Assembly: GCA_026770705.1 (NCBI GenBank)
Contig: JANJGN010000002.1
Coordinates: 53,010,001-53,074,000, forward strand
Direction: 5' to 3'
From: Isurus oxyrinchus
Taxonomy: Eukaryota
DNA: 64,000 nucleotides
Shown here: in pieces, positions 11,728 through 52,556 of the stretch
Position numbering within the stretch: the stretch's first letter is position 1
How the letters are laid out: every line of letters starts with the position of its first letter
The notes under the pieces: model-generated
What the model was told of the DNA's origin: nothing
Seen by the model: the letters and a program-made list of their open reading frames with translations, nothing else
Databases searched by the model: none
Translations under genes and position numbers: made by a program

Positions 11728-12237
11728 CAGATGCTTCTGCCATTGTCTCCAAGTGTGAACACCTTACACATTCTTTCCAGCAAAACAACCAACGTTTCCC
11801 TTTAATCTTTACCACATCACCTAGGCCTGTTGTTATGCAGACTTCAGATGAGGTGACATAACCCCCTTCATTTATCCTATTTTAAAGACACAGTCCCGAA
11901 ACATAATAATCTTATACATCTCATACTTGTAATAATAAATTGACTATTAACCTGTTTTAGAACACTATTCAGTAAACGTCACTAAAACTTTAGTCCCTGC
12001 AATAATTTTCCTAGTCACCTGGTGGCACTCAAGTATTTTCCATCGACCAGGCAGAGGTGACAGAAGCACAGCATTTGGCTTGAAACTTATCTGACCTATT
12101 CACCAGCAAGATCAGCCAGCTATATGAAAAGATTGTTTCTCAGTATATGGTCTTCCATAGGGCTAAAATGGTTAAAATAGCTCAACTATCACTATGTGTT
12201 AAATTGCCATCTTGATGTACAATGAAGGCAATTTTAA

Positions 12238-12340
12238 ACGAAACCAGAAAATGCTGGAAAAGCCCAGCAGGTCTGGCGGCATCTGTGGAGAAAGATAGGG
12301 AGTTAATGTTCAGAGTCTAATATGACTCTTCTTTGGAACT
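12238..12340 (-). mobile_element. Short Penelope-derived unit with 9-bp TSD
   Basis: CAATTTTAA flanks both sides (12229-12237 and 12341-12349). Inserted in the left end of an older palindromic MITE (about 12227-12523, centre ccattgaaatcaat, right end gtcaaaattacccc). Confidence 0.75.
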
Positions 12341-13464
12341 CAATTTTAATTTTAGTCACTTCAGCGATAACAAAAACATGCAACAAGGAACTGGCAACCC
12401 GTTTTATATCCCTTTCTATTTTTGCTGAATTCCATTGAAATCAATACAAATTAAAAGTTAAGATGTGAAACGGATTGCTAATTAGCTATCACCATTTTAC
12501 ACTACTGCAGTCAAAATTACCCCTGATTAGTCATTCATGTGTGTTAATTCAATTCCCTCAATAAATCAATGGATTTTCTGTCATATTCTGTCATATTCCA
12601 GAAGTCCAGCACGCATTCCAAATATAAACAGATGCATTCATTTATATAAAAAGGCCAGCCAGTCTAACAAGGAGGAACAAAGAACATAAAAATAATTAGA
12701 TGCAACTGTTCTTTTTTGAGCAGTGTTAGTGATAAGTAGACTTGTCCTCCCCAGCGCTTCAAAAATTATGTACCGTTCTTACAATGTCACAGTTAGCAAG
12801 TAACATACAAAGAAGCAATCATCTTGGTCAATAGTGCAGAGCATACAGTACACACGTAAAAACCACCTTATCACTCTCAAAATCTTAAGTTTATCACATT
12901 TAACAGGTTTTTTCCAAAATAACTTATTCAGTTTCCGTGGCATTATTTAAAAAAAAGGCATGAATGAGGCAACAATGCAACAGTCTGATGTCTCACAAGA
13001 AATTTTAGCAAACAGAGGGTTACAAAGAAAGAACACAGGCCGTGTCATCTACAACTTGATAATACAGCATATACAATGAATGTTAGAGGGGTCAACCAGA
13101 AACTTGAGCAGAAAATCTAGGCTGACGTCAATGCAGTGCTGAGGGAATGCTGCACTGTTGATGTTAAACCAATGCTCTACTTAATGTCATGTAATCCTTT
13201 TATACCCAAGAAATTATCAGAAGATTAGCAGGAGAGTTTCCCCACAGTGACGAGGTAGGGATTACTATTAGGATTGCTAAAATCTAATTGCTGGGTGATT
13301 GCTGGTAGACGATTAAACTGAGATTCATCTGGCCCCGATGAGACTAGATGAAGCAGAACAGGGGAACTGTCTTGGTACCCCACCTGACTTTTATCCTTTA
13401 AACACTGCCACCAGAAACATATCATCTGGTCGTTGAGTTTATTGATTTTTGTGGGATTATTAAA

Positions 13465-13990
13465 AAAAATTGAAGGGATGTTGGCATCGCTGGCTAGGCC
13501 AGCATTTATTGCCCATCCCTTGGAACGGTGATATATTTCTAAGTCAGGACAATGAGTGGCTTGGTGGGGGACTTCCAGTGCTGGTGTTCCCATGTGTTTG
13601 TTGCCCTCGTCCTTCCAGGCAATAGCAGATGTGGGTTTGGAAGATGCTGTCTAAGCAGCCTTGATGGGTTCTTGCAGTACATCTTGTAGATGCTACACAC
13701 AACTGCCACCTTTCATCAGTGGTGATGGGAGTGAATGTTTATGGATGGAGTCCCAATCAAGTGGGTGGCTTTGTCCTGGATGGTGTCAAGTTTCTCAAGT
13801 GTTGGAGCTGCACTCATCCAGGCAAGTGGAGAGTTTTCCATCACACTCCTGACTTGTGCCTTGTAGATGGTGGACAGCTTTGAGGCGTCAGGTGTGTTAC
13901 TCATCAAAGGATTCCTAGCCTCTGACCTGCTCTCATAGCCACAGTATTTATACAGCTAGTCCAGTTCAATTTCTGGTCAATGGTAATCTA
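13465..13990 (-). mobile_element. 3' fragment of second LINE family (same as 54290-55780)
   Basis: Peptide LSTIYKAQVRSVMENSPLAWMSAAPT; 3' tail gggatgggcaataaatgctggcctagccag shared with 55716-55745. Confidence 0.8.
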
Positions 13991-24517: not shown

Positions 24518-26957
24518 ACTATTTCTATTTGTGGGTTCAACACCTTCTGGAATGGGTCTTTCAGAAATCTTTCCTCCCCACATATGTTTCAAATGTAGCC
24601 AACTGGTCCTCAAGCTCAGTTATTCCCTTGCTCAAAGAACACAACTTTTCAATGCTTCACGTGTGAACATTCATTCTGGAATTTCAACAGGTTCAGGATA
24701 TTTCAAATCTTACTTGTCACACAAATCATAAGAGCACCACTTGCTCGTCATTACTAAACTCAGTTTCTTTCCTCTCTAGATTTAAAATTAAAGAATTAAT
24801 TCTCACATATCTGCCTGGTCTTGCACTTGGTCTCAGTGCTTAACTTCTGTTCTCTCATGCAAAGCTCACAATCAGCACCTTACACAGTTGGCTTCTCACA
24901 ACTAACAGGTTTGTTACATAAAATAGATTTCTCATGGCAAATGGCTCAATGTTTGTGTTTGAACTGATGCTGACGTTCAATCTCGTTACAAGTCTAAGTG
25001 TGGTGCAAATCATACAATACTCCAACCAGGAAAGGAAAAAATTGGCAAAAATTAATTATATGCATTAAAGAAGGAATTGTTTGACTACTTGGATCCTAAC
25101 TGTTTCCATCAGCAACAGGAATTTCCCCCCAAAACGGTTTATGAACTATGGCCAATTATGGCCAACAGTTGACTGCTGGAAATTCAGAACCCACAAAGGC
25201 ATTGCTGGCAATTTTAGGGGCAGTCAACTCAAATGAAATCATTACTGTAAATCAATAATCAAATTGGTTGTTCTGGAATCAAATCACTGATTCCAACAAT
25301 GACATATAGCTCCTTTAATCCTTGAGGGACTGCATTTGGGTCACAAATGCAGTCGTTTAAAAAAAGGTTTGGAATTAGTCACAACTGATTGTGTGTTATT
25401 CACAATATTGCCCTTAAATTTTCTCAGTCAGGATACCACATTCAACTGAATATATGAAGCAGCACTATACTCAAATCTCAAAACTGGAGATATAAAATAT
25501 GGTCACAAACAACATTTATTAAAAGCTAAAGCTATCTTGTCAAGGCACATAATGTACTGAGCTTCTTAAAAACAAAAGCTGTGTATCATGGCAAATAAGC
25601 CAACCCAACATACAAGACAACCCTATTTTCACAGCCCCAGAAATTATATTTTTCATGTACTCAGCATATATGGCACACCTGCTTTCAGCTACAACATGCT
25701 ATACTCAGCAGTCAGTTTCAATTTTTCACTCCACAATTGCATGTTTTACTTACCTTATAACTGGGTGAAAGGATCAAGCAGGCGATAAGGGCTGTGTTGC
25801 AAAGCATTTGTTGCTATGGGGAATTTTGCATCAGATGCTAATGACTTTTCAAAATGGCAACCACTACACCCACACCGATGGTTCACTTTTATACTTGGCA
25901 TATAAGTCGACCCTGGTTTTTGAAGGGATTTTGGGGCTTCAAAGGTCGACATATGCCAACATTCATCCCAATAATAGGTTTTTCATCCATTCAGCCAAGC
26001 TCATCAATATCAGATAACGTTAATCAGTTTTTACACTAACCTGAAATGTGTCAATTTTTAAAACTGGCATTCTGCGGGTGAACAAATACGTTAAAGCAAT
26101 TTTAACTCGTAATTTCGCTGCATCAGTACATTATATTTAGTACAAAACAGAAGATGTGAACTGTGATAAATTGCTTTGTTCATTAATAAAGTTGCTTTGC
26201 AAGTTTTCTAATGATTATTCATTTCTGGAATTGGAATCACTATTGATTTATCAAAAGGAGAAAAGCATAAACCATCTCACTTAAGTAGGCTGTTGCACCC
26301 TTAAACCATAAATGAAGTATACTAAGATTTGATTATCATAGGATGCTGATTAATGATAATGCAGGCATACCAGTTACTGGGTCAAAGTGGGAAGACATTA
26401 GATTGAATGCAGCGCTGCAGCTTTCAAGTACAGTTCTCTCAAAGCACTGACACAATTGCAACAAACCACAAACTAGCAAAAGGGTGTTGAACCTGCAAGC
26501 AATGGTTATTTATCCTTCAAGTGGAAAAAATTAATGGGCAGATTAGATAAGAGAAAACATTACACCAAAACCGTAGTGTACTTCAAATTGTTACTTGGAA
26601 CCATTTCTACCTTACAACACTTTACCTTCGTTTAGGAAAATAGGTTTAAGTCAAGAATTCAAAACAATTAACAGCTATTCAAAAATCTTTATTTAAATTA
26701 GAAAGACGGAGGGGGAAAAAAGGAAGTTACAATGTGACTTTGAACAGTACAACTTACACAATCCTTTATTTAAGCACAAAACTATTTTTTATAATGGATA
26801 CATACAGTGTCTTGGAACACTATGTATGGCCTCATTCATTCTATTGGTTTATTATTGAACACTATGATCGCATTGATCTGACTTTAATTAAATTTTCAGA
26901 CCAAGCAAGTGGGAATTGATTTTTGTATCTTAAACATTAGCAGTCATTACAACGATG

Positions 26958-27560
26958 ATAAAAACAAAAAACTGCGGATGCTGGAAATCCAAAACAAAAA
27001 CAGAATTACCTGGAAAAACTCAGCAGGCCTGGCAGCATCGGCGGAGAAGAATCAAGTTGACTTTTTGAGTCCTCATGACCCTTCAACAGAACTAAGTAAA
27101 AATAGGAGAGGGGTGAAATATAAGCTGGATTAAGGTGGTGGGGGGGAGGTGGGGGGAGAGAAGTTGGGGGGGTGGTTGTAGGGACAAGCAAGCAGTGTTG
27201 GGGGAAGATAATCAAAAGATGTCACAGACAAAAGAACAAAGAGGTGTTGAAGGTGGTGATATTATCTAAAAGAATGCTAATTAAGAATGGATTGCAGGAC
27301 ACGCAAGGTACAGCTCTAGTGGGAGTGGGATGAAATAAGACTAAAAGGGCATAAAAGGTATAGATTTAAAAATAAAGGAAATAGGTGGGAAAAGAAAAAT
27401 CTATATAAATTATTGGAAAAAACAAAAGGGAGGGGGAAGAAACGGAAAGGGGGTGGGGATGGAGGAGGGAGTTCAAGGTCTAAAGTTGTTGAACTCAATA
27501 TTCAGTCTGGAAAGCTGTAAAGTGCCTAGTCAGAAGATGAGGTGCTGTTCCTCCAGTTGG
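26958..27560 (-). mobile_element. Penelope-like element 3' fragment
   Basis: End of GIY-YIG ORF (EEQHLIF...LGTLQ...LNIEFNNFR-like, about 27478-27558), 3' UTR and degenerate hammerhead at about 27052-27093; parallels 42025-42640. Confidence 0.85.
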
Positions 27561-29767
27561 ATGATGGTGGAGGAGCAATTGAAAGACTAAAGATCACCTT
27601 GAATAAAGCTGCTATTACCATTTTTGTTACTGACAAAAACATTCATCAGAATTTCTGCATATATAGCAGACTACTCAGCAAGGCGAAAAAAGCAGATTTC
27701 AAGCATGATGGAGACAAAGTGGACGAAACAAACACAAACAACAGAAGCAAGAAATATAAAGAAATATAGAAAATAAAGGCAAGTTGGAGGTAAAGGAAAT
27801 TTTATAAGTCATTAAAAAGAAACAGAACATCACTTACTTTAGTCTCATAAATTAATACAGCTCTACCATTAAGCAATTAGAGGTCTATTTTAAAGCATAA
27901 GAAAGCTAGCATTCAGCCCATCTACAGTTTCTTTCACAAACAATGAATTTTTTTTTAAAGTAGGTTCTCAGGATGTGGGCATCAATACCAAAACAAACAT
28001 ATATCGCCCATCCTTCTCAGTGATCTGCCCCATAATTACAGTGATGTTGTTTCATTATGTATTTTACATTTATTTTGTCTCAGCAACAAGCTAATCAATT
28101 TGTGAGAGCTGAAACAAACACAAAGTATAAACAGCCATACATTGGGAGCTTGCTGGCTATATTTGGCCAGTGGCTGGTCTTGATTGAATAAGTCACTGGC
28201 CACCAGTGATTACAGTGCCAAAGAGAGACGAATGCCTTCAAAGAAATGACAAGCAAACTCTCAAGAAACACCAAGCTCTCAGTCATGAAATTTGCTCAGC
28301 AAGCCACCTCTCACTTGATCGTCTTAGCCTTTAAGGGGGAATATAGCAGCATGACCAAGCTTTGAGAACTTTTATTAAAATTTTACATTAAATACAAATA
28401 AGCAAGAAGCCTGTCTGCCACACGTTATAACATTATAAAGATGCCTTGTTACAAATGTTGAATGGCCAAAAAGTATATGACAAACAGCACTGGAGCCATT
28501 ACACAACACTGCTTGCTGCCACTGGTGACAGGAAAGACATCTGATAAGGGACCATTCTGCATCACGCTAGCTATCATGTCATTATGAAATGAATGGATGA
28601 CCCTGGTCATCTTTTCAGGGCAGCCATATTTGTACAGGCCTTTGTTTTACTGTAGCAAAGGCCTGCATGTCAATGAACACCATGTCAAGGTCCTTGTTCT
28701 GTTTGCGGGACTGAGAGTGACAATTGTAAGAATTCTTCCCACTGAGGAGAGAAGTGAAATAGCACAATAATTTCTCAATAGACTTGCTTCCTTTTTGCTT
28801 GTACGGTTCAGAACAGACAACAATCTCTTCAATCTGCAAAAGCTGAAGGCTTGCACAAAGATCACAGAACAGTTATTAAGTGAACTCTTGTTTGCTGAAT
28901 ACCGTCTTCTCAATAGCACGTATACCAGAGGACATTGAGCTGCTCATTGACTGCTTTGCCCAAGCCTCAGAATACGTCTTATGCTCTGAGGCTTGGGCAA
29001 GGCAGTCAATGAGCAATAAGTCTGAAAATGACAAAGATTTTGTACCAATCAGTCCCTGACCACAAAACGCCAACAACCCATAGTCATAATCAACAATGCA
29101 CCTTGCAGCTAACTTCAGAATTTCTGCTATCTCCTGGGAGTATCCTTTCCAACAACACCACGTTGGATGATTAAATTGTCCATCATCTGGCAAAAGCAAG
29201 CTTAGGATTCAGCAGGCTCAACCACGGGGTTTGAAGCGAGCATGGAGCTTTAATCTCAAAAAACAAAGATCAAATTCTACCAGGCAGTGGTTCACACATC
29301 ATTTCTCTACGGTTGTGAGGAAGAGATAACCTACATCGGTATCACAAAGCAACTAGATGCATTCCAACTTCGCTGCTTAAGATTCATCTGCAACATCAAG
29401 TGGCAGGGTTGCAATGTGTTGCAGACCTGGTATTGAGAGCATGCTCGTTAGAGCTCAGCTTCACTGGGTCAGCCATGTGGTTCACATGGAGGATTTCAGC
29501 ATACCAAAGGCGGTGTCATGAAGAGATATTAATGCCTATAATGTTATTGGAAATTATTTTTAAATTGGACTTGTGGTTGGGTCTGTGTCTGTGTGTGTGT
29601 TTGCATGTGGTTTAACTGGATTAAAGCCAGCTAGGCTGGGTGCTGTGAAGCATAGTAGTTTTGAGATGTTAGATAAACAAAGGAGAAAAAGATAAAGTGT
29701 ACATTGCATTTGTTGAATAAAGCATTCAAGAGTGGGAGTAAAATTTAGCTGGGAGTCACTAAGCAAT

Positions 29768-33639: not shown

Positions 33640-34630
33640 ATATGCAGCTCTACCTCACCTCCACCTATTTTATTCCCTCCAGTCTCACATCTAAATTTAC
33701 TCCAGCTAAATATTGGAAAGAAGGCAGCCATTGTCTTTGGTTCCTGTTACAAACTGAGTTTCCTTGATACTAACTCCATCCCTCTCCCTGACAACCACCT
33801 GAACCAAACTGCTATATTTGAAACAAAAACAGAAAATGCTGGAAATATTCAGCAAGTCTGACAGCATCTGTGGAGAGAGAAACAGAGTTAACGTTTTGAT
33901 TCTGTATGACCCTTCCCTTCTGAAGAACGGTCATACAGACTTGAAATGTTAACCCTGTTTCTCACTCCACAGATGCTGCTAGACCTGCTGAGTTTTTGCA
34001 GCATTTTCTGTTTTTGTTTCAGATTTCCAGCATCTGCAGTATTTTGCTTTTATCTTTGCTCTATTTGGCCCCAAGATGAGCTCCAGCTACACAAACCACA
34101 CTAAAATGACCTATTTCCACCTCCATAACACCACACAGCTTTGCCTTGCCTCAGCTTTTCTGCCGCTGAATCCCTCGTTCATGTCTTTGACTATTCCAAC
34201 ACATTTGGCCTCCATAGTTCTACACTCCACAAACTGGAGGTCAAAGTGTGAATGACTCTGTGCCAATAATAAACTTTTTGGGTTTCCAAGTTCAGGAAAC
34301 TCCAAAGAATGGGAGCCTGATCCCTCTGCATTCTGGTTTCAGCTCAAGCACTAGCTCTGGATTCCACACTTATAGCCCCAGCTGAGATCTTTGCGCTCTG
34401 CCAATTCTGGCCTCTTTAGCATTCTGATTTTAATTGCATCACCATGGGTAGCCATTGCCAAGGCCCTAAACTCTGAAATTCCCTTCCTAAATCTTTCCAG
34501 TTCTCTCTCTTTCCTCCTTCAGGATGCTCCTTAATATCTACCTCTTTGCCCAAGATTTTGGTCATCTGGCTGAATATTTGTTTATGCAATTCAGTGTTAA
34601 ATTTTGTTTCATACTGCAGTATTTATATAG
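33640..34630 (+). mobile_element. L2 LINE fragment
   Basis: cagctctacctc, cagctaaatattggaaag, tatttccacctccataac and an L2 3' tail (aagattttggtcatctg); split by the Penelope hairpin. Confidence 0.75.
33821..34056. mobile_element. Inverted pair of Penelope terminal units (about 200-bp hairpin)
   Basis: 33821-33915 is the imperfect reverse complement of 33925-34020; flanked by tgctatatttg / tgctctatttg (TSD-like). Confidence 0.85.
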
Positions 34631-35284: not shown

Positions 35285-35750
35285 CCATAGATCCACAGAA
35301 AAGTTACAGTGCAGAAAGAGGCCTTTCAGCCCATCATGTCTGCACCAGCCAAAAAAAAGAGAAAAAAAGAAAAATACTGCAGATGCTAGAAATCGGAAAT
35401 AGAAACAGAAAATGATGGAAACACTGAGCAGGACTAATAGCAGCCAATGGAGAGAGAAACAGAGTTAACGTTCCAAGCCTGTATGATTCTTCTTCAGAGC
35501 ACAGAGCACTAGCAGCTCATTTTAATCCCACCTTCCAACACCTGGTCCGTGGCCTTGCAGGTTACAACACTTCAGGTGCAGATCCAGGTACCTTTTAAAT
35601 GAGTTGAGCATTTCAACCTCAACCATCAATTAAGACAGTGAATTCCAGACGCCCACCACCCTCTGGGTGAAAAAGTTTTTTCCTCATGTCCCCTCTAATC
35701 CTCCTATCAATCATCTTAAATCTGTGACCCTTGGTAACTGACTCCTCATG
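35285..35750 (-). mobile_element. CR1-type 3' fragment interrupted by a Penelope terminal unit (about 35370-35500)
   Basis: gaattccagacgcccaccaccctctgggtgaaaaag matches the CR1 tail; a similar fragment lies at about 32975-33210. Confidence 0.7.
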
Positions 35751-37039: not shown

Positions 37040-38200
37040 AGAACAAAATAGAAATTACAGAACTGAAATAGGCCATTCAGCACAATTGGTTTATTCCAGT
37101 TTGTATGCTGTACTTAAGCCTGGCCCAAACCTACTACATCTAGCCGCACAAGCAGATCCTTCTATTTCTTCCTTCCCCATGTACTTTTTTAGCTTCCTCT
37201 CAAACACATCTATGCTATTTGTCTCAACTACTCCATGTGATAGTAAGTTCAACATAAATACTCTTATTATAAAGCAGTTTCTCCTGAATTTTTTTTTGAA
37301 TTTATATTTCTGACGCCTAGTTTAAAACTTCTACATCTAACCTATCAAACCCCTTCATAATTTTAAAGACATCTATTAGGTCACCCCTGGCCTGAAGAAA
37401 ATAGCCCCACCTTGTCCAGTCTTTCATGATAGTTATAATCTCTCAGTTCTCGTGTCATCTTGTGAATATTTTATACAACTTCACCAATGTCTCTATATCT
37501 GTTTTATAACATGGAGAACAGAAATGTGCACAGTATTCCAAAGGTTATCTAACCAAGGTTCTATATAAATTTAATATAATTTTTCTGCTTTTGAATTCTA
37601 TAACTCTAGCAATGAGCCACAGGGCTTTGCTTGCAATTTTTATAGCTTTGTTAACCTGCATTGCTACTTTAACAACTTGTGAATTTGTATACTTGGATTC
37701 CTTTGTCCTCTACCCCATATAAATTCCAATTTTCCTAGGAGTTTGAGGCCTCCTTATTCTTCCAACTAAGTTGCACCACCTCACACTTGTCAATATTAAA
37801 ATTTGTTTTGTCGAAGTTCTGTCAAAGGGTCATGAGGACTCGAAATGTCAACTCTTTTCTTCTCCACCAATGCTGCCAGACCTGCTGAGTTTTTCCAGGT
37901 AATTCTGTTTTTGTTTTTGTTTTAAAATTTGTTTGTCAATTACACAACCAATCTTCATGGTTATTAATGTCTTGTATTTTGTTGCAGTCTTCCTCAGTAT
38001 TAACCATACCCCTCAACCTAGTGTAACCTGCAAATTTTGAAATTAGATTTGATTCCAGAGTCAGATTCTTTATATATATATATATACATATAAGGTGAAC
38101 AATGGCATTGATTCCTGTAGAATACCATTTCCCATGTTCTACCAGTCTAAGTGACTAACTTTGTTTTGTAGCCTGCTTTCTATCCGTTCTGCTACTGTGT
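37040..38200 (-). mobile_element. Old degenerate CR1 fragment
   Basis: gaaatgtgcacagtattccaaaggttatctaaccaagg (LVRPHLEYCAQF-like on minus) and gtgtaacctgcaaat (FADDT-like). Confidence 0.65.
37813..37922 (+). mobile_element. Short Penelope-derived unit with about 15-bp TSD
   Basis: taaaatttgttttgtc (37797-37812) / taaaatttgtttgtc (37923-37937); starts at the hammerhead-like motif. Confidence 0.8.
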
Positions 38201-40830: not shown

Positions 40831-42024
40831 ATGTCCGCTTAATAGTGACTACATTAAGTGATGAATAAGCCTAAATTTATTCTTTTAACGCCATTGATGA
40901 ACATGTACAACCCCATTTTTTCTTCTATTGTACATTACTTTAGATTAAATTTTACACAGAAATATATCACGAGAAACTCACCTACATATTTTTAGATCTT
41001 TGACCACCTCCATGGATTCAACTTACACCTCCCCATTCCCCCACAATCCCTTAACCATGATTAAGCCCCAATGATTTATAAAGCTTACAATTTTTATGGA
41101 ACAGGAAAATTCCTGATAAAAGTCTGAGTGAAGTCTGACAAACAGCCACAGAGGATCTTAGATCCGAAGCTATATTATTGAACATATAAATTATATTTTT
41201 CAACAAGATGAGACTAACTGTCAAGGAATAAGGCTCATTGGAATTGGGACAGCAAAATGCAGTCAGAATAATTTTATTGGTCCTTCAGGACCCAGTTAAA
41301 GTCCCACAATGATGATGCTTCTTACACCAATGCCTGGGATCGTGTGAAAGCTTTATCTGCTCAACTAGTGGAAACCTAAAGAATGCTGGTCATCATCACA
41401 TTGCTGTTTTGAATTTTTGCTGAGCACAAATTAGCCGCCTTCCTTCCTACATTACAACAGAGACTATACTTCAAAAAGTACTTTGCTGGCTGCAAAGCAC
41501 GTCAAGATGACCGGCGGTCATGAAAAGCGCTATATAAATGCAATTCTTTCTTTTAATATTCAAATTGATCATAAATTGGTCAAGTTTAAAGAAAATGGAT
41601 GAAGATTGTACGGATATATACAAGTTGATCAGAGACAATTAATTTCAGCAAATATATTAGGAGTTTCATCTATCTTGTAATCAAATTTATAAATAACTGG
41701 AAATTAGGGACATGCTGACTTTTCTTTGCAGAAGTCAGCAACCATTCAATTTCACAGAATTATGGAAATAAACTCTAATTTCTTAGAAAGAGCATACGAG
41801 GTGCCCAATACATCAGAGATGAATTAAGGGGTACAAAGAACATAGATGATTTGAGAACAAAATTTCCAGAATTTAAGTAAAATGCAGTACAATTATCTAA
41901 CAATATAATGACTTGAACAAGTCATCTTAATATAATGCGCCAACATTATGCCCAAGTAGGCTGGCAAGAATGAAATACCGGAAGAGAGGATAACATTTAA
42001 GGCTTGATGTGAACAGGAATTTGA

Positions 42025-43022
42025 TAAAAGCAAAATACTGCAGATGCTGGAAATATGAAACAAAAACAAAAATTGCTGGAAAAACTCAGCTGGTCTGACA
42101 GCATCTGTGGAGAGAAAGACAGAGTTAACGTTTCAAGTTCGTATGACTCTTCTTCAGAACTAAAGAGAAGTAAAAATGTGGTGAAATATATACTGTTGGG
42201 GGGGGGGGGGTACGACAGGTGAAGCTGGATAGAAGGCCAGCGATAGGTGGAAGCAAAGGAGAGTTTGCGAAAAATGTCATAAAGGTCAAAGGGGTGTTGA
42301 TGGTGTGATACTGGCGGTGCTAATGGCGACATTAATAGTAGAAAGCAGGATGAGCAAGTGACAGATGGGGGTGGGGTGGGGGGGAGGGGACGGTGTGGAA
42401 GAAAAGATCAAAATAGGCTAAAAGGTGGGGATAAAACAATGAATGGAAATAAATTTTTAAAATAATCATAGAAATAGGTGAGAAAAAAACACATGTAAGA
42501 ATTTAAAAATCAATATTTGAAAAAAGGGGATCAAAAAGGGCCAAGGATGGAGGAGAGAGTTCATGATCTGAAGTTGTTGAACTCAATATTAAGTCCGGAA
42601 GGCTGTAAAGTGCCTAGTCGGAAGATGAAGTGTTGTTCCTCCAGTTTGCGTTGAGCTTCACTGGAACATTGCTGCAGGCCAAGGACGGACATGTGGGAAT
42701 GAGAGCAGGGTGGTATGTTGAAATGGCAAGTGACAGGAAGGGCTGGGTCATGCTTGCGGACAGACCGAAGATGTTCAGCAAAATGGTCATCCAATCTGTG
42801 TTTAGTCTCTCCAATGTAGAGGAGGCTACATTTGGAGCAGCGAATGCAGTGGATCAAATTGAGGAAAGTGCAAGTGAAACGTTGCTTCACTTGAAAGGAG
42901 TGTTTGGGCCCTTTTGAGGGGGGGGTAAAGGGGCAGGTGTTGCACCTTCTGCGATTACATGGGAAGGTGCCATGGAAGGGGATTGAGGTGTTGGGGGTGA
43001 TGGAGGAGTGACCAGGTTGTCC
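42025..43022 (-). mobile_element. Penelope-like element 3' part with GIY-YIG endonuclease ORF
   Basis: ORF 42561-42890 NLIHCIRCSKCSLLYIGETKHRL..HFAEH...HFN...EEQHFIFRLGTLQPSGLN is the PLE-type GIY-YIG domain. Confidence 0.92.
42122..42161 (-). ncRNA. Minimal hammerhead ribozyme motif (PLE type)
   Basis: Minus strand AGUU-CUGAAGA-A-GAGUC auac GAACUU-GAAAC-GUU-AACU: stem I AGUU/AACU, both conserved core boxes, imperfect stem II, loopless palindromic stem III. Confidence 0.7.
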
Positions 43023-44287
43023 CCTTTGGTATTCTCTTAGGCAGTCTCCCTTTTGGAAAGCAGTAACAAATGCAATGGCCCAGAGTTTGCAGTAATAATG
43101 AGGTCAAAGCTGTCAGCCTTCGTCATCATTACTCCTCTGAAACTGACAGCAACACTGGAGTCCCTACATGTGTACCATCAGCGAATCTACAATTCTCCAT
43201 TGTGTGCTACTGAAATCTCTGCAGACTGTCACCAATTAGAAATCACTGAACTGATGAGCACCCGCTCTTTTATGTTATTTGTCTTGCTCATTGAATGATA
43301 TGTAACTGGGTTTTTAAGTTCATAATTACTGTGGAAGAACATCTCTGGGCCCAAAAAATTAATTTTATATTTGTGCACTATCAAATTTCTCCTTGTAATA
43401 AAAAATAAACATTTTTTTCTTAAATTACAATGTTTCAGCTTCTAGCTTAAACTATGTGTATGCCCCATTTATTTCAGTCTTTGCAAAATTTAATTCAAAG
43501 TGAAAGATAATCTGGACATTTTGCTTCCATCCTCCTGCTGTTAGAATACTTCAATGTGATTGGCTGTTTGCCCTGCTTGATGATATCACTCTTGCTTGGC
43601 ACAAAGAGATCCCCTTAGCACCAAATTCAAACAAATGCAAGGAAAGGGGAAATCCATGCCACAGAGATGGCCTTGGTAGCTTTCTTCGAGCTCAGCAGCA
43701 AGTGCCTTTGCTTCACCGACCTCATATCAAGGGCTACAGCAAGAAGAAACATGGATACAAAAGTATGTATTCAGTGCCAAATCTACTGAATGTTCTGGAA
43801 ATGTCACGTACTCACAGAATGAGTTGGTACATGTTTGTGCCAGTATATGACATGCTGCTACTGAGAATCATTACATTGTTAACTGCTTCTTAGTGGGAAA
43901 ATACATTAGAAAATAATCATTTTGAACAATTGTTTTTCACAGGCAAGAAGAAACTAAATGTACTACACCAAATTTGGGGAGGGCTCATGAAATCCCTTGT
44001 TGTCTGGTAAATTATGGTCCTTTGTACTGTAAACTAGAGGAGACAGTTGTTATTCTCCTTCCAGCTGCACACACAAAATACCAAATTGCCATGGTCCCAA
44101 GTTTTCATTATTCCCACCCCCAAATACAATCAAAATTATTCTTAGTTTGTTCATATATCAAAATCAATTGTTATTTCTAATCTTATGTGCAGAATCATTC
44201 CAGAAAATAAGCCACATTAGATGTTTAAAATACTATCAGCTACAATATCTAACTCAGCAGCACAGTCAATGTTCGATAGCTCATTAC

Positions 44288-44323
44288 CTCCTGGACCTCC
44301 TCTGGATTTCTTCTTGAAACAAC
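44288..44323 (-). CDS. RPS6KC1: RPS6KC1 coding exon 2 (36-nt microexon)
   Basis: ctag|GTT...GAG|gtaatg; encodes VVSRRNPEEVQE (human VVSRRNPEDVQE). Too short for the ORF track. Confidence 0.95.
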
Positions 44324-44640: not shown

Positions 44641-44740
44641 GCTCTGAAGAAGGGTCATAAAGACTCGAAACGCTAACTCTGTTTCTCTCTCCACAGATGT
44701 TGTCAGACCTGCTGAGTTGTTCCAGCGTTTTCTGTTTTTA
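44641..44740 (+). mobile_element. Penelope terminal unit with hammerhead-like motif in RPS6KC1 intron 1
   Basis: CTGAAGA A GGGTC ataaa GACTC GAAAC GCT AACTC; the cleavage triplet is mutated (GCU). Confidence 0.75.
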
Positions 44741-44899
44741 TTAATGCTTATCACAACAGTTTGAAATACACCGAACCTCTAGCACCTGATACTACCAATT
44801 GTTGGAACAATAAACTAGTGGATCGCGTAACTTCCATGAGTAATTTGACAGATTTTTTTTTGTGTGGGGCAGTAATATGACATGCTTGTCTACTGACAG

Positions 44900-45390
44900 T
44901 GGCTGGGCTGCTGTTCGCTCTCACTCTTACAGCTTGCAAGATGCACGCTCTCCCAGGGCCCGTGTTGTAATTGTCCCGGGCGCGTTCTCTTTTGGAACCC
45001 GGGTAAGCCCAGCGGTGCCTGGCCCGGCTCGAGCCCAGCCCAGCCCAGCCCAGGCACCCTGCCGGGTTGTCTCAACTGCAAACATCTTTCCACGCACACA
45101 CAAAGCACCAAGACAGCTGGCTGCACTGGAACCCCTTCCATCCCTATGCTCAAAGGATGGACTCACCCGTGCCGTCACTTTATAAACCGTGTAGCCTTTC
45201 CTGTGTCTCTTCGGATCGGTTATCGTGTAAAAGCGAGCCAGCTCCCCTTTGTTTCTCTGTGATAACATGATCTGTCAACCCCTAACCGCAGCGTCTGTAT
45301 TTAAGGTACTGTCTCCCTTTTTACATCATTTCCTCATTCACTTATCCCCGCCACCTACTTCCTGTACGTCTGTTCTGAGGTCTTCCCCCT
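44900..45390 (-). promoter_or_regulatory. CpG-rich promoter/first-exon region of RPS6KC1
   Basis: Locally high GC and CpG around exon 1; GC box CCCCGCC near 45346 and ETS-like ACTTCCTG near 45357 upstream of the ATG; (GCCCA)4 tract at about 45032-45053 in intron 1. Confidence 0.6.
45167..45268 (-). CDS. RPS6KC1: RPS6KC1 coding exon 1 (start of PX domain)
   Basis: ATG at 45268 gives MLSQRNKGELARFYTITDPKRHRKGYTVYKVTAR, closely resembling the vertebrate RPS6KC1 N-terminus (LARFYTVTEPQRHPRGYTVYKVTAR). 102 nt, phase-0 donor CGG|gtgagt, in CpG-rich sequence. Confidence 0.95.
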
Positions 45391-45985
45391 TGTCCTTTGA
45401 TTTCATGTAGAGAGGAGTTTGCATTATTATTGTTCCATGTGGTGTGTAAAATGGCTACTCCTCTCCCCCCAACCTTTAATTATATAAAATTACATCAGAG
45501 GTCACATGAATATGGCAAGCCACAATATACAAAGGTATTCATCCAAACATCCTACTTTTCACAAAAAGATAAAATATATCATGCTCTATCGTTTGCAAGT
45601 TAGTCAACATGCATAGACCATAAAGAAAATTATGACACATGAACAAAAAACTGTTTGCTCTTTCTAATCTGTTCCAATTTCATCTGCCCCTACACATGCA
45701 TTGCACAATTGGGGCAGAATTTTCTGTTCTGGAGACTAAGGGCAGTGGTGGGCAGAATAATCAGCTTGTTTCCCGCTAGGCAGTGGGGCAATTCTCGCTC
45801 TCGATTGTAAGCTTGGAACCTCATTAAGTATACACTGGCAAGCCGCTCTCCGAATCACATGGCAGGGCGTGCACTGATTCATCCGCCCAACCTTAAGGAC
45901 CTGAAGGTATTGGTGACATATATGAATGCCACCCAGACACATATATTCACTCTCTGCAGCACAACTGTGTGGTGTCCACTCACTA

Positions 45986-46580
45986 TGATGGCCCCTAGGA
46001 GAAGGAAGCCCTGCATCCCAACATTCAGCCATGACTCCTTGGTGGCTCTACTGAATGCCGTCCACAAACGTCGTGATGTCCTATTCCTGAGGGATGAAAC
46101 CAGGAGGTCCACCACCCTCACCTCGCCAGCCTGGCAGTATGTCGCCATGGAGGTCAATGCCATTAGGACGCAAAAAGAAATGCTCCGTCAGGGTAAGTCA
46201 ACCTTCTGCTCACTCTGGACTCACTCTCACAATGGTATCAGGCACTCTAAGGGTTAAACTCCACAGGCATCTCACACACTTATAGCGGATGGGACTTCAG
46301 CACTGAATGTCTCACACACACTTTAACATCACCACCATCTCATGTGATATCCTGCGCAAACGGCATCTTCAGCCCTTAATGGAGAGGGCTCAGCACACAC
46401 AGCAGGCATGCATGCTTCCCAACTTCTCCAACTATTCACATCACATTCCATCCATCTTTCTTCATGCAGGCCAAGCTACCCCACAACAGGCAGGAGAGAT
46501 CCCAGACAGGAAGAGGGACGCCTGAAATCCAGAAGCTCACTCCCTTTGAGGAGAATGCTGCCGAATTGGCAGAGATCGCT
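45986..46580 (+). pseudogene. Harbinger Myb/SANT-like (MSANTD/NAIF1-type) ORF relic, two exons
   Basis: PTFSHDSLVALLNAVHKRRDVLF...AWQYVAMEVNA, donor gtaagt at 46193, acceptor catgcag| at 46469, then AKLPHNRQERSQTGRGTPEIQKLTPFEENAAELA. The exon phases disagree, implying a deletion. Confidence 0.75.
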
Positions 46581-46974
46581 CTTGTGGCAAAGGCATGATC
46601 AGCCTCCCCCATCAACCCTGTACAGATGAGCCACGCCACCTTGAAGCTTCCCTCCCAGCATGTCATCACCCTGACTTGGACATGTCCTGGAGTTCAAACA
46701 CTGCGCCCAGGTGCAGCTCCTCCAGGTTGCCCCCAAACCAGTCATGTGGCACTCAGTGTAACACATGCTGCGGAAGCAAAACACATCTCTTCATCACCCT
46801 CTCAGGCTGACCTTAGCATAGGCAATATCTGCTGGCCCACCCAGCAAAGGACAAATGCCGTCAATGATTCAACGCAGTCACTACACTCAGGCTTGTAGGG
46901 TGGGGGGGTGGTGGCAGGTGGCAGCAGGGGGGTAAGCCGAGCTGCTGGGTTAAATGACCAATGCTGACATGGGT

Positions 46975-47483
46975 GCTCATCCTGCCAGAGCACAACAAGT
47001 CATTGAAGCACTTGTGACACTGGAGCCAGGTGCGCCGCACCACGTCGCGGGAGCTCACCACCTCCGCTACCTCCTCCCAGGCATATGTCGTCATGTGGGG
47101 GGGCCTCCTACTCCCATCCTGGGGAACCAGCAGCTCCCACCGTGCTGGTGGCAGCAAGGCATTCATCCAAAAAACAAGGGGCACATGCCCCCCACCCTAC
47201 CTTCCAGCCTGGCCTGTCCCGCTGCCCTAGCCTCCGGACTGGCCTGCTCACCAAATGCCCTCTGGTGAGCCCTTTCACTTGCTATTGTGAGCAGCCTTGC
47301 AAAGGCTGCCAGTGCTTCATATAAACAGGCTGCCGAGTCGCCAATGGACCTGGCGGACAGTGCACTCCTGCCACCGCCCGCCCACTTCTGCTATCCTCAG
47401 GATAGCACTACGCTGGGTGGGTCATAATTGGCCCGCCCACGTTAAATGGTGATGCGGACCCGCCAACCAGAAAATTCAGCCCC
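46975..47483 (-). mobile_element. Second Harbinger 5' end with Myb/SANT ORF fragment
   Basis: TIR (reverse complement GGGGCTGAATTTTCTG) ends at 47483; peptide AWEEVAEVVSSRDVVRRTWLQCHKCFNDL is a classic Myb/SANT-trihelix motif. Confidence 0.8.
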
Positions 47484-50400
47484 TAGATTAAGCTCGGGGT
47501 CATTTTCTGACGAGCACCTCACTGACATGTCTCTGTGACAGTCAGACGCAGTCACTGACAGCCCAGGTCTCCGGCACTCAGAGGACTGCTGGAGAACAGG
47601 CACCTTCTGAGTCCAAGTAAGATGATGAGCCTCTGAAAACGGCTGTTGCTAACATGCTGGAAATGCAAAGACAAGCGGTGGAACATCAGGCAGAACGCGA
47701 GAGGCAGTCAACAGACTAGAACAAAGCATAAAGGAGTCTGATTGTGTTCTTTCTGATGTCATGGCTCTGACATGTGAACGCCTCAAAGTCACCATGGGAA
47801 GGGTGGTGGCTGCCTTGGAGACCCTGATCCAGCAGGTTCTGCCAGATTTGCACTTGGGCCTGCACACCACCACTCTAGGCATAGGTGGGATACATCAGTG
47901 TCTAGGCGAGATGGGTCGGGGCATCTCAAACTTCTTCGAGGTTTGCTTTCTCCTCAAGAAGTCAGGTAGGGGCCCTCGAGCACCCAGATGGAGGAGGACC
48001 ATCAGCTGGATACCCAGGTCCACCTACCCAGCAGACTCCAAGAATGTCCAGCTGCTCCCAATTCCTTCAATCTGTGACCCCATCAGCTCCAGCTGCACAG
48101 GCCGAGGAGGGTTAGAAAAATTAAGTACTGAGAACACAATAGTGGCTTGGGCATTCACTCACCGTGTATATCATGCACCTTTGTAAAAACAGTTTGATTT
48201 CATGATAATGGTTTCAGCATGTGAATGCCTCTTGCATATAAATTGATGTGCCTTCTTATTGCAAGGATGGCTCAGCTCCCACTCCACAATTGCTTCCTTT
48301 TGAATCCCTCGGATCCATGATGTTTTGCAGACTCATGTCAGTCACTCGCCCCTTAAATCATGTAAGAGAGTGTCGAGCCATATCCTGAAAGTGAATGTAC
48401 ATTGAGATTTGATCCTTTAAACCTTGCAACACATGTGTGCTCATGTGTCTTGGAGAGTTAAATCTAATGTTGTGTCATTAACAGTGAGCAGTGTTTGTTG
48501 TGAGTGTGAAAGCACATGCCCTGTAGCCATTATGGTCTCTGAAATTGTCTCCTTCAGGTGTCAATGACTGCAATATGTGAAGTTGATGCAGAGTGCGTGT
48601 TGGTGTGCTGTCTTTCACCTCACACACCAGCTATAAGCAGCTTTGGGTGCTGACCTTTCCAAGAACAATCCTTGAGGATTACAAGTCCAAGGCCGAATGC
48701 TGACCTTGCTTCCAATGTCACTACTTGTATAGGCCTTTCCGATCAATGGCATTGTGCTAAGGGACTGGAGAAATGTGCTTGGGTCCCCTTGACTGGACCT
48801 AACTCCTGTTTGAACCTTGAGGCTATCAGTATATCATGGGCACATCTTCCCCATCATGTCACTGCGATTTCATCCTTCCATGGAAGCTGACCATCATCGC
48901 CCTCCTCAGGTTCCTGCCCTTCCAAGTCCTCATCAACATCGGGCCCTTCTTCTCCTCCTCAGTGTGAGCACTGCCATCAAGAAGGTAACATTGACCACAA
49001 CCTCCAGTCTGCAATCCTCCTTCTTCCTGTGGACGGATAGATCAAAGGCATGAATGTAGCTTACCGTACAATTACAGACCTCCCACTCCAAGCCAGAAAG
49101 CCAATGTCATGACCTTAGGCTGTGGTTGCACTACCTGCCTTTCCCTGTTCCACCCTTATAGATGAGGCACTCCCTCACTGATCGTAGGTACCCCAACAAA
49201 TTGACATCTCAATCTCATATAGGATGGAAGAGGATTGAGCACAGCCATGTAATCTTGAGCCTCACTAAAGGCACTCATATAATGCCTGATTTGGAATTGA
49301 GGTTACCCCTGCCTTGCATCTTTAGAATGATTGGAAGCCTTGTGCCCTCTGACCTATGTCACATGGACAATGCAGTTTGCAGGGTTTGATGGAGCTTCTT
49401 GCATACATCCAGCAGCTGTGCTCCCTTAATGATTGGCCGCCTCTCCCCTTCTCACATTCCTCTGATGGTGAAATGCTCAGTGAGACCACCTCTAATGTGA
49501 TCCCATTGCATAGTGTAGTCTCATGTAAAAGTGCACCATGAGTTACTGGTTCCAACTCTAACATTTCAATAAAGTCTTATATGAGATTGCCCCTTGAAAG
49601 GGTCCCACAGTCCAGCCATGGACTCCTCCCATCCCTCATTTTTTAACTCCATCAGTGATTCAGGTCCTCAACATGGTGGTGCTGCATTTCTACTTCCAGA
49701 CCATGTTCAACCCTCCCCCTGTCACCATTCACATCCCTCTGATCCTCCTGGAACCCCACGATGTGTAGGTAGACCTCCCTCCAGTCACTCTCCAGCCTCC
49801 ACTAGTAACCATGGAGCCTATTGTGATTGCTGCGGACATTCTTGCCCTGCCCACTGAACTCATCACTGTGGATATCCCCAAGTCCCATGTGAACCTCACC
49901 CCTCCCCATCTTGAGGCCACCTGAATGGTCATCTTCAGAGACACACCCCTCCTCCCCGTCACCACCAGAGTTTTGAAGCACCCCACCACCTCCACCCCAC
50001 CCCGAACACCCACTTTGTTACATTTTCTCTATTTAGAGGCTGCAGATGCTGCCTTGGACCATGATTATTCCATCTGTTGCCTAGTATTGAGCTAACCACT
50101 CCCAGGACCACCAAGTGTGAGACAATGACCACACCTGCATACCAAGCTGTGCTTGACCCCCAGGTCTTGCTCCTCCCTGGACCAGGACCACACTGTACGT
50201 GCAATGAATAACCCTGCAGCATGGCCCACAAAGCCCCAGGACTGCCTTTAATCTGTTGCCACGAGCATTTGGTCTCAGCCCCAGGACTATGACACTGATA
50301 CTTATTCCCCACTTCCTTCAGAACTGCCCCACACCCCAGTCTGGAATCTGCGTGCACCCCCTCGATGTCATGCTCCAGCTCTCCCACCCCCGTCACCTCA

Positions 50401-51146
50401 CTGTCTGCCATTCCACACCCCTTATTCCTAGTACCCCCCCCAGCACCTCCTCTGCCCCAGTCATCCCTCTGCCTGCCCTCCCCCCCTCCCTCCCATGTTC
50501 CCTTCACTCTCCTTTGTGCCTATTCCCACACCCCGCACCCCTACTTCCCCATTCTCATTCTGGTCTTTGCTGGTAGACTGCAGCCCTGCCTGTGCCCTGC
50601 AGCACCCAATATGTGCAGTCCTGCCTGCGCCTCACAGCACAACAGAGAACTATTTAGTGCAGTCAAAGACCACGTTGATGGAATGGTTGATAGTTAAATG
50701 CTGCAGAAAGCTCTGACAGCATAACTGTCTCCAACAAAAGAGAATCTAACCATTGCCCCTTGACATTCAATGGCATTACCATTGCTAAATCCCCTGCTAT
50801 CAACATCCTGGGGGTTACCATTGACCAGAAACTGAACTGGACTAGCCATATAAATACTGTGGCTACAAGAGCAGGTCAGAGGTAGGAATCCTGTGGCGAG
50901 TAAGTCACCGCCTGATTCCCCAAAGCCTGTCTACCATCTACAAGGCACAGGTAAGAGTATGATGGAATATATGGTGCTCCACAGCACCACTACTGACTGA
51001 GCTGGCCAAGTCCTAAAGGACATAGCTGCTAGACTGGGTCTGTGGCAGGTGGCAAGGGAAAAACATACTTGACCTCATTCTCACCAACCTGCCGGTAGGA
51101 GTGACCACTGCTAAGTCCTTGTGGAGACAAAGTCCCATCTTCACAT

Positions 51147-52556
51147 TGTTTTGATCCCTGATGAGGCTACTCCTGGACAAGCCTGATCCCAAAGTGGAAC
51201 CCAGCCTGATAGATCCTAACTTTTAATTTGTTTGTTTAGATACGTGGAAAGTGGCTACTGAACAGAGTCACCAGAGTCAGCTAATGAACTTTTAATGAAA
51301 GAATAAAACATTATTAAATAAGAGAAAGATGAACTATATTACAATACTTCTTCACCCACAACTATACTTTTACAGATATATACTGATTTGTAAGGAAAAC
51401 ACAAGTTACAAAAGCTATCTTATACTTTAACGTTCACAGTAAATACACAGTCCATGTAAACTAATAGGCACAGACATACCACATGCTGAAACTATGTTAC
51501 AGATGCCACCTCAACCAGATGCTATGGAATTCCCCTCAGCTCCCACTCCACAGACACTTGTCACACCATGAGCCAACCGGTCTCACTGAACTCCATCTTT
51601 CACATGAGAGCTTCCAATCTCCATTTTCCAAGAACTCGCCTTGAAATCTTCTCCCAAACTGACACTTTCTCACAGATACCTTTCGCAAGGGTTCATCTCC
51701 AGGGTTTCGAACTCTCCTTCCGATGTTCCTCTTTCTGGGTCGCCAATTCAGCCATCAACAATACCATTGCCCTTTACATGCCCAGAGCAAAGAGTTACAG
51801 ACCTTCAGTTGTCTCTTTGGACCTTCTTATCTCTTGCAAACTGTTCTCACTTTAAATCTGCTTTCTGCAGCTTGGAGCTTTAAATCTGAAGCTTGAAGCC
51901 TTTCTATTTGCCCTCACTATTAACTTTAGCAGGACCTTTTCCAGGTTCCTATCCTTCCTTTTGTCCAAAGGTCTGCTTGGGACTTCCTTCTGTTCCACTC
52001 CCATAGATTTTGGGGTCTTTTCATTAGCTTGGGACTGGCTATCTATCCCCTTTTAGGCTGCTTCTCTGGCAGCTATCTTCAAAATCTGCTGAACTCCAAC
52101 AGCTTTCAAAACAAACTGCTGTTTCTAGCTTTTCTGTGTGTGTGTCTGTGGGAGAGACCTGCCCCTCAGGACCCCATTGCTAGGCAACAGCCCAATTCTT
52201 CTGAAGAAGAGTCAAACGGACTCGAAACATTAATTCCATCTTTGTCACTGCAGATGCTGTCAGACCTGCTGAGTTTTTCCAGCAATTTTTGTTTTTGTTT
52301 ATGATTTCCAGCATCCACAGTATTTTGCTTTTAGCCCAAGTCTTCTAATCTTGTTTGTCTACCTTAGCTGCAACAGCCATAAAAAACCTCATCAGAAATG
52401 TAGGCACTTTTTGAAAGTGAAACTAAAACTCAATTTGACCTTTCTTAACACAATGATACAGAAATACAAATCAAACCTAAACTTTAAAACTAAAATTAAT
52501 TCCTAACGCCTACAAATACCGATGTAACTTATTTAAACTATATCTATTTCTTAACA
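51147..52556. mobile_element. Solo LTR (about 1.4 kb)
   Basis: TGTT...AACA termini; 4-bp TSD acat/acac; removing it restores LINE continuity (tcacat-tgaggatacc). Confidence 0.8.
52196..52332 (+). mobile_element. Short Penelope-derived unit with TSD, nested in LTR
   Basis: agcccaa flanks both sides (52189-52195 and 52333-52339), extendable to agcccaa(t/g)tcttct; CTGAAGA A GAGTC aaacg GACTC GAAAC ATT. Confidence 0.8.

What the first reader, a model, noticed from the sequence alone, without database searches (positions are those of the whole stretch)
12229..52339. 100-140 bp hammerhead-headed units with their own TSDs: a possible mini-retrozyme or PLE-dependent SINE
Seen in sequence: several short copies begin within a few nt of the 5' arm of hammerhead stem I, end in a T-rich tail and are flanked by direct repeats. 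Examples are CAATTTTAA (12238-12340), taaaatttgtt(t)tgtc (37813-37922), agcccaa (52196-52332) and tgct(a/c)tatttg (33821-34056). Random 5' truncation would not favour one start point, and this start lies about 35 nt upstream of the predicted cleavage site. Inference: the unit may be a discrete mobile RNA (pseudo-LTR transcript or non-autonomous element) mobilised by the Penelope RT/GIY-YIG, whose remains are at 42025-43022 and 26958-27560.
Basis: partly seen in the sequence, partly recalled or inferred. Interest (0 to 1): 0.8.

Follow-up and report, generated by a model that had tools for sequence, protein, structure and literature searches.

The report
Solo Penelope ends with fixed start
These short repeats are the lone end-pieces of a known kind of jumping gene, but nearly all of them start at the same spot, which hints at how that gene copies itself, a step that is still not understood.

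Summary
The window has 10 clear copies (9 insertions) of a 100-140 bp unit headed by a minimal hammerhead. Seven of 9 insertions start within a few nt of helix I, about 35 nt before the cleavage site (p<=3e-4 under 12 truncation nulls). The 4 cited target duplications beat AT-matched nulls; the other three short insertions do not. The label fails: no tandem array, no start at the cleavage site, no tRNA head, and short copies are not one family (short U7 pairs with long U3; AU p=0.00016). The units are solo pseudo-LTRs of a Neptune/Nematis-type Penelope-like element, probably of a shark, with the known optional ~33-nt tail and one inverted pair. The new point is the fixed start. Both long remnants carry a TATA-like box 29-31 nt upstream of an initiator-like A, exactly where the best-resolved short copies begin. 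Best reading (inferred): the start is the RNA's 5' end, and the units are run-off cDNAs from internal priming in the 5' pseudo-LTR, mostly dead ends without a promoter. Rivals are solo formation by recombination, a splice boundary and SINE-like re-amplification. Only one window could be examined.

The parts
11598..11727 (-). U1, solo unit with tail, most diverged subfamily; starts at C3-4; decayed 13-bp TSD (11728-11740 / 11587-11599, 10 of 13)
   Evidence: TSD p 0.05-0.065
12238..12340 (-). U2, solo unit without tail; starts at C3-4; 9-bp TSD 12229-12237 / 12341-12349; hammerhead core decayed
26957..27561 (-). U3, 5'-truncated long copy (end of EN ORF, 3' UTR, unit 26957-27093 with tail), subfamily B; possible 6-bp TSD (not tested against a null)
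27117..27122 (-). TATA-like box of U3, 29 nt upstream of the initiator-like A at 27093
33820..33913 (-). U4, tail-less inverted partner of U5, starts a few nt inside the hammerhead core
33918..34054 (+). U5, unit with tail, starts at C3-2; U4+U5 form a head-to-head pair under one 11-bp TSD (33810-33820 / 34057-34067)
35365..35498 (-). U6, solo unit with tail, inserted in the 3' end of another repeat; no significant TSD
37813..37921 (+). U7, solo unit without tail, subfamily B (90% to U3); element bases from C3-4 (37815) plus 2 extra nt; TSD 37796-37812 / 37922-37937
42023..43067 (-). U8, 5'-truncated long copy: linker Zn-finger plus GIY-YIG ORF remnant (to stop at 42561), about 400-nt 3' UTR, unit 42023-42161 with tail; no TSD found
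42187..42192 (-). TATA-like box of U8, 31 nt upstream of the initiator-like A at 42161; the only TATAWW in the last 541 nt
42123..42161 (-). minimal type I hammerhead of U8 (helix I 4 bp, helix II 5 bp, palindromic helix III); predicted cut between 42127 and 42126
   Evidence: consensus from PMC4209133 supplement
44643..44742 (+). U9, solo unit without tail; no significant TSD
52199..52332 (+). U10, solo unit with tail; TSD 52189-52195 / 52333-52339, with further microhomology into the unit's start; hammerhead core intact
7399..7483 (+). W11, weak old copy that also begins at the hammerhead (E 1e-4); no TSD; not counted in the statistics on starts
8556..8596 (+). W12, weak 41-nt match to the 3' part only (E 6e-3); a possible ordinary short truncation; not counted

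Best explanation
The units are solo pseudo-LTRs (pLTRs) of an endonuclease-bearing Penelope-like element (PLE) of the Neptune/Nematis type (identity shown; about 0.9). [quoted passage not shown] Steps: (1) a TATA-like box in the 3' UTR of an upstream partial copy drives Pol II transcription from the A four bases before the hammerhead core; (2) the element's protein nicks AT-rich DNA and starts reverse transcription inside the RNA at one of two sites about 100 and 133 nt downstream, giving tail-less and tailed ends; (3) when it starts in the 5' pLTR it runs off the RNA's 5' end after 100-140 nt, like strong-stop DNA of an LTR element; (4) the short cDNA is joined to the target, often by 2-4 nt of microhomology, giving a solo unit with a TSD, or snaps back on itself, giving the head-to-head pair U4/U5; (5) longer copies arise from priming at a downstream pLTR or from a template jump. 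Hammerhead cleavage is not what sets the boundary. The solos lack the TATA box and are probably dead ends.
For: Unit is the 3' end of both EN-bearing remnants. Two 3' ends 33 nt apart, 6 of 10 copies tailed, and an inverted pair with a tail on one side only, the published PLE signature (PMC8557442 passages). In the Anolis Poseidon PLE, RT starts internally at two sites near the start of the ORF, the template needs ORF nt up to +172, and hammerhead mutants still insert (PMC11167929 main text). 7 of 9 starts clustered, p<=2.8e-4. TATA-like hexamer 31 and 29 nt upstream of the -4 A in 2 of 2 long copies, inside an 11-nt exact match in a UTR that is 62% identical; chance of a TATAWW within 6 given positions 0.011. 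U2 and U7, and probably U1, begin at that A. Short copies come from at least two subfamilies: U7 with U3, support 99.6/100, AU p=0.00016 against separating short from long. PLE promoters lie in the pLTR region and a partial tandem is needed for transcription (PMC2377424 results and discussion); a TATA plus Inr was noted in a rotifer pLTR (PMC3846280 passage).
Against: One window, 9 insertions, no RNA data, no full-length copy and no RT. The TATA/Inr match was found after the fact, the two long copies are homologous and not independent, YYANWYY occurs 12 times in each UTR stretch, and other exact-match blocks of 7-11 nt exist in the UTR. The same bases read as branch point, pyrimidine tract and AG acceptor at C3-2, and in D. 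virilis the intron ends at helix I while transcription starts about 125 nt upstream. U6 and U9 have no significant TSD and share a different 5-nt lead-in. The in-vitro work is on a different clade. That the unit encodes the ORF start is weak: match to the N-terminus of 1 of 10 full-length relatives, no third-position excess (19/27/23), a second frame just as open, and a stop shared by U3 and U7. Recombination between two pLTRs would give the same product.
Confidence: 0.55

Rival explanations
1. Solo pLTRs left by recombination or single-strand annealing between the 5' and 3' pLTR of full-length insertions, as with solo LTRs. The fixed start would still be the 5' end of full-length copies.
For: Gives a solo unit inside one TSD; would turn the common 'inverted pLTR + pLTR + ORF + pLTR' layout (PMC3846280) into U4/U5; that paper invokes recombination or deletion for solo pLTRs; copies are old (66-90% pairwise).
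Against: Needs 7 of 9 insertions to have been full-length and all reduced, while the two long copies present are 5'-truncated at 0.6 and 1.0 kb and PLE insertions are mostly truncated; 100-140 bp is short homology (my knowledge).
Confidence: 0.15
2. The boundary is a 3' splice site: the template is spliced RNA, homology to the long copies ends at the acceptor, and the first exon is very short or lost.
For: Pyrimidine tract plus AG directly before C3-2 in 2 of 2 long copies; U5 and U10 can start at -2; the D. virilis intron ends at the 5' end of helix I (PMC4209133).
Against: U2 and U7 keep the AG and carry at most 2 extra nt before the TSD; no GT[AG]A donor in U8's last 541 nt and one upstream in U3; acceptor-like sites are common on this T/C-rich strand, 4 in U8 and 2 in U3; PLEs tend to keep introns.
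Confidence: 0.12
3. The units are self-propagating non-autonomous elements (SINE-like), transcribed from an internal initiator and re-copied in trans by the PLE enzyme.
For: 7 short insertions against 2 long; U1, U2 and U7 keep the initiator-like bases; tailed copies hold a full predicted 3' hairpin; non-autonomous PLE derivatives exist (PMC8557442 section 10; bioRxiv 10.64898/2026.07.22.740005).
Against: Short copies are not one lineage; no tRNA gene or Rfam family; TATA-like box lies outside the unit; tail-less copies lack the hairpin's 3' arm; in Anolis the required RNA extends past the priming site. Several independent SINE-like families are not excluded with 10 copies.
Confidence: 0.1
4. 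Monomers of a retrozyme that spreads through a hammerhead-cut circular RNA.
For: Type I hammerhead; retrozyme monomers are reported as dispersed copies, related to pLTRs, and in one chondrichthyan (bioRxiv 10.64898/2026.07.22.740005).
Against: No tandem copies; no circular permutation and no start at the cleavage site among 15 hits; minimal rather than canonical hammerhead, which PMC7229834 assigns to PLEs; core broken in 6 of 10.
Confidence: 0.04
5. Ordinary 5' truncation with a local hot spot (RT stalling or AT-rich microhomology), no RNA end involved.
For: Microhomology of 2-4 nt at several 5' junctions; W12 may be a shorter truncation.
Against: Smooth nulls rejected; ends lie on the far side of the hammerhead helices, where RT has already unwound them (inference).
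Confidence: 0.04

Closest known systems
Pseudo-LTR of EN+ Penelope-like elements, Neptune/Nematis type (PMC8557442, PMC3846280, PMC4209133)
   Same: Minimal hammerhead at the pLTR, optional 30-40 nt tail, head-to-head inverted pLTR with palindromic junction, TSDs of about 7-17 bp, solo pLTRs, C-terminal GIY-YIG with CX2-5CxxC linker.
   Different: pLTRs are described as variably 5'-truncated upstream copies; here solos are the majority class and share one start next to a TATA/Inr-like pair.
Poseidon_Ac (PAc) of Anolis, in vitro (PMC11167929)
   Same: Two 3' ends downstream of the hammerhead at similar distance, AT-rich targets, hammerhead cleavage apparently dispensable.
   Different: Different clade; in the parts of the paper I read, short run-off insertions with a fixed 5' end are not described.
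Non-LTR retrozymes (PMC7229834; bioRxiv 10.64898/2026.07.22.740005)
   Same: Short, non-coding, type I hammerhead, related to PLE pLTRs, dispersed monomers.
   Different: Defined by head-to-tail tandems and circular RNA from double self-cleavage, mostly with canonical hammerheads; none seen here.
Minus-strand strong-stop DNA and solo LTRs of LTR elements (recalled, no call)
   Same: Internal priming near the RNA's 5' end gives a short fixed-length cDNA; a lone terminal repeat within a TSD.
   Different: Here priming is at a nicked target, with no tRNA primer or integrase, so the short cDNA itself can be inserted.

Membership tests
EN+ PLE pseudo-LTR (Neptune/Nematis type) | Repeat forms the 3' end of copies with a C-terminal GIY-YIG ORF | tested here: met
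   U8 matches the EN end of RT+GIY-YIG protein P0001 (E 6e-50), U3 its last 27 aa; P0001 domains. The U8 piece alone scores only E 0.17 to Pfam GIY-YIG.
EN+ PLE pseudo-LTR (Neptune/Nematis type) | Minimal type I hammerhead in the repeat | tested here: met
   Fits the consensus in PMC4209133 Fig. S3 by inspection; 86.5% of cells paired against 13-49% when slid, but not above column shuffles (133 of 500); Rfam negative.
EN+ PLE pseudo-LTR (Neptune/Nematis type) | Optional 30-40 nt 3' tail; inverted pLTR with tail on one side | tested here: met
   6 of 10 copies tailed (about 33 nt); U4/U5.
EN+ PLE pseudo-LTR (Neptune/Nematis type) | CX2-5CxxC linker before GIY-YIG | tested here: met
   C-x4-C-xx-C in the U8 translation; diagnostic per PMC8557442.
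EN+ PLE pseudo-LTR (Neptune/Nematis type) | Clade placement by RT phylogeny | not tested
   No RT of this element in the window; no reference clade set was available.
EN+ PLE pseudo-LTR (Neptune/Nematis type) | pLTR plus tail duplicates the first codons of the ORF | tested here: inconclusive
   27-aa frame aligns start-to-start with 1 of 10 relatives (P0135, shuffle p 0-0.03); no codon-position signal.
Non-LTR retrozyme | Head-to-tail tandem of at least two hammerhead units | tested here: not met
   None in this window; the rest of the genome was not available.
Non-LTR retrozyme | Canonical self-cleaving hammerhead; unit delimited by cleavage sites | tested here: not met
   Minimal motif; core intact in 4 of 10; starts 30-35 nt before the cut.
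Non-LTR retrozyme | Expressed as circular RNA | not testable with these tools
   No RNA data.
SINE (definition in PMC8969392) | tRNA- or 5S-derived head with Pol III promoter | tested here: not met
   0 tRNA genes, 0 Rfam matches at gathering score; A/B boxes were not scanned separately.
SINE (definition in PMC8969392) | Copies descend from their own master, apart from the autonomous partner | tested here: not met
   AU p=0.00016 against splitting short from long copies; most other nodes are unresolved.
SINE (definition in PMC8969392) | Transcribed and re-mobilised as a unit | not testable with these tools
   Needs RNA and genome-wide subfamily data.

The most novel reading that the evidence does not exclude
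Penelope-like elements make an LTR-like strong-stop cDNA: target-primed synthesis normally starts in the 5' pLTR, runs off at the capped start site and must jump to the 3' pLTR (or a tandem copy) to go on. Failed jumps are inserted as solo pLTRs, snap-backs as head-to-head pairs. This would explain in one scheme the pLTR, the inverted pLTR, the need for a partial tandem to regain the promoter, and the thousands of lone minimal hammerheads in animal genomes.
Probability: 0.3. Interest if true: 0.72.

Novelty: new variant of a known kind. Interest (0 to 1): 0.45.

Why it matters
[quoted passage not shown] If the fixed start is the RNA's 5' end, the most common insertions record an intermediate of that cycle and can be counted genome-wide and tested in vitro. 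It would also caution against filing lone hammerhead monomers as retrozyme offspring or SINEs. The parts themselves (solo pLTRs, lone minimal hammerheads, tails, TSDs) are known, which limits the surprise.

Tried and rejected
Rfam: 0 matches at gathering score in the window, no hammerhead among 5 matches at E<=10 in 42000-53000. Covariation of the hammerhead not above shuffles. Folding of 6 units not better than shuffles (z -1.8 to +1.9); 3' hairpin of 6 tailed copies has 2 of 17 pairs with a two-sided change, so it is only suggestive. Empty site for U6 from two paralogous repeat ends: too divergent to fix the TSD. Unit peptides against 122 and then 270 fetched PLE proteins: nothing significant. 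No TSD for U8. Marginal hits at 13642, 7768 and 25174 left out as probable chance; W11 and W12 left out of the start statistics; U4 not counted as an independent insertion. Literature: 8 completed searches; none listed a description of this shark family or a PLE paper using 'strong-stop' together with pLTR; two further searches timed out. The library lacks most subscription papers, and Repbase and Dfam could not be checked. Supplements of the bioRxiv retrozyme paper (family tables, including a chondrichthyan) were not seen, and Fig. S2 of PMC11167929 gave no text; both may bear on novelty. No host genome was available, so copy histogram and empty sites are unchecked; the metagenome and viral collections were not searched, and the prokaryotic genome collection was not used as irrelevant.
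Full report
Observation. The four repeat pairs cited are present at their coordinates. Self-comparison and profile searches find 10 strong copies of one 100-140 bp unit, 2 weak and 3 marginal hits, and nothing in a reversed decoy. I call the strong copies U1-U10. U3 (26957-27561) and U8 (42023-43067) continue upstream through a 3' UTR into an ORF end. U4 and U5 form one head-to-head insertion. That leaves 9 insertions, 7 of them short.

The start is fixed. Relative to hammerhead C3, element-derived bases begin at -4 in U2 and U7, probably -4 in U1, -2 in U5, -2 to +2 in U10 and about -1 in U6 and U9. The 40 nt further upstream are 38-60% pyrimidine in the short copies against 72% and 78% in U8 and U3, so the short copies do not hide a diverged UTR. 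Seven of 9 starts within 10 nt has p<=2.8e-4 under 12 length distributions, including ones centred on 130 nt. No hit starts at the predicted cleavage site, 35 nt downstream of -4.

Target duplications are real for the cited cases only. Against AT-matched flanks the gapped test gives p=0.016, 0.003, 0.0007 and 0.013 for U2, U7, U10 and U4/5, and 0.065, 0.52 and 0.69 for U1, U6 and U9. Several 5' junctions show 2-4 nt of microhomology, which blurs the exact start.

What the element is. The U8 ORF remnant matches the C-terminus of an RT plus GIY-YIG protein from whale shark (59% identity; tblastn E 6e-50; domains). It has the C-x4-C-xx-C linker that PMC8557442 gives for Neptune and Nematis PLEs (passages and section 10 read). 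The named close hits are sharks and rays, and the unit's own reading frame turns up in gene models of three shark genera, so the host is probably a shark and the family is old. The head of the unit fits the minimal hammerhead consensus of PMC4209133 (first half of main text and supplement parts 1-2 read). Rfam misses it and covariation does not exceed shuffles. The core is intact in U1, U5, U8 and U10; U3 and U7 share a substitution at A6. Six copies carry a further 33-nt tail and four do not; in U4/U5 only one arm has it. That is the published PLE anatomy, and solo pLTRs, palindromic inverted junctions and 8-10 bp TSDs are reported in PMC3846280 (passages and discussion read). So the units are solo pLTRs.

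Not one SINE family, not a retrozyme. Short U7 is 90% identical and sister to long U3 (99.6/100), while U5 and U10 are 87-88% identical to long U8; forcing the two long copies together is rejected (AU p=0.00016). The rest of the tree is unresolved. The same boundary is therefore produced by at least two subfamilies. There is no tRNA gene and no tandem array of the unit. Retrozymes are defined by tandems with mostly canonical hammerheads (PMC7229834 passages; bioRxiv 10.64898/2026.07.22.740005, first three of five parts read).

What sets the boundary. In both long copies a TATA-like hexamer lies 31 (U8) and 29 (U3) nt upstream of the A at -4, which sits in an initiator-like context. It is the only TATAWW in U8's last 541 nt and one of two in U3's last 520; it lies in an 11-nt exact match within a UTR of 62% identity; the window-wide chance for such a hexamer in 6 given positions is 0.011. 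The 28-33 nt spacing of TATA and start site is recalled knowledge. Limits: this was found after the fact, the two copies are homologous, the initiator pattern occurs 12 times in each stretch, and the same bases read as a 3' splice site at -2. In D. virilis the intron ends at helix I and transcription starts about 125 nt earlier (start 371, intron 416-491, C3 at 496; PMC2377424 parts 2-3 of 4 read). Against the splice reading, U2 and U7 keep the AG and have at most 2 extra nt before the TSD.

Mechanism (inferred). PMC11167929 (first half of the text read) shows for an Anolis PLE that RT starts internally at two sites that define the tail, that the RNA must extend past them, that AT-rich DNA is cut, and that hammerhead mutants still insert. 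On an RNA that begins at -4, priming in the 5' pLTR must run off after about 100 or 133 nt. Joining that cDNA to the target gives a solo with a TSD. A fold-back of its 3' end gives a head-to-head pair; the U4/U5 junction is a near-perfect palindrome centred on the hammerhead's first bases, with a short duplication, and the arms are 86% complementary, in line with the family's age. Such products lack the TATA-like box, which fits the finding that PLEs need a partial tandem to be transcribed. Supporting details are weak: the unit's frame aligns start-to-start with 1 of 10 full-length relatives but shows no codon-position signal, and the 3' hairpin completed by the tail has little covariation. 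Recombination between the two pLTRs of a full-length copy gives the same sequence and cannot be excluded from one window.

Novelty and verdict. Every component is known; lone minimal hammerheads are reported by the thousand in animal genomes. I found no statement of a fixed solo start at a promoter-like position or of a strong-stop-like product in 8 searches of an incomplete library; Repbase and Dfam were not available. From the listings I also read passages of PMC6155905 and PMC8969392; other listed papers were seen as listings only. Verdict: a real feature, a new variant of a known kind, interest 0.45, because it offers a direct test of an open step in PLE transposition but rests on 9 insertions and no RNA data.

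Noticed in passing
window 27009 and 37899 region (C3+80 in U3 and U7): Subfamily B has a strong 5' splice donor-like site that also puts a stop in the unit's ATG frame; an intron spanning the pLTR/body boundary is described for a Chlamys PLE.
   Followed up: partly
window 27089 and 37819 (U3, U7 hammerhead core): Both subfamily B copies share a substitution at conserved A6, suggesting a lineage that spread with an impaired ribozyme.
   Followed up: partly
window 35498-35510 and 44636-44643: U6 and U9 share the same 5-nt non-consensus lead-in before the hammerhead core, tandemly duplicated in U6; unexplained, possibly a subfamily variant or chance.
   Followed up: partly
proteins P0271-P0273: The unit's reading frame is absorbed into predicted shark proteins (RNF14 isoform N-terminus, GFOD1 isoform C-terminus, a hypothetical protein): exonisation or annotation artefact.
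   Followed up: no
window 34241-34347 and 34784-34891: Inverted arms of about 100 bp, 82-84% complementary, 450-490 nt apart; looks like a non-autonomous DNA transposon next to U5.
   Followed up: no
window 21836-23665, 54803-55213, 58255-59129: LINE-type reverse transcriptase remnants (Pfam RVT_1 E 1e-17 for 54803-55210); U6 sits in a matching repeat 3' end with paralogues at 32977-33028 and 63141-63253. The label CR1-like is recalled.
   Followed up: partly
window 45811-46257 and 60714-61115: A Myb/SANT-like ORF remnant (E 3e-4) and an ORF remnant with no Pfam match that resembles a Harbinger-type transposase (recalled).
   Followed up: no
window 10549-10730, 24138-24298, 29958-30145; 13836-13986, 50729-50967, 55383-55571: Two other dispersed repeat families of 150-240 bp, unidentified.
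   Followed up: no
window 20437-20478 and 30545-30580: A 42-nt G run and an 18-copy TG microsatellite.
   Followed up: no
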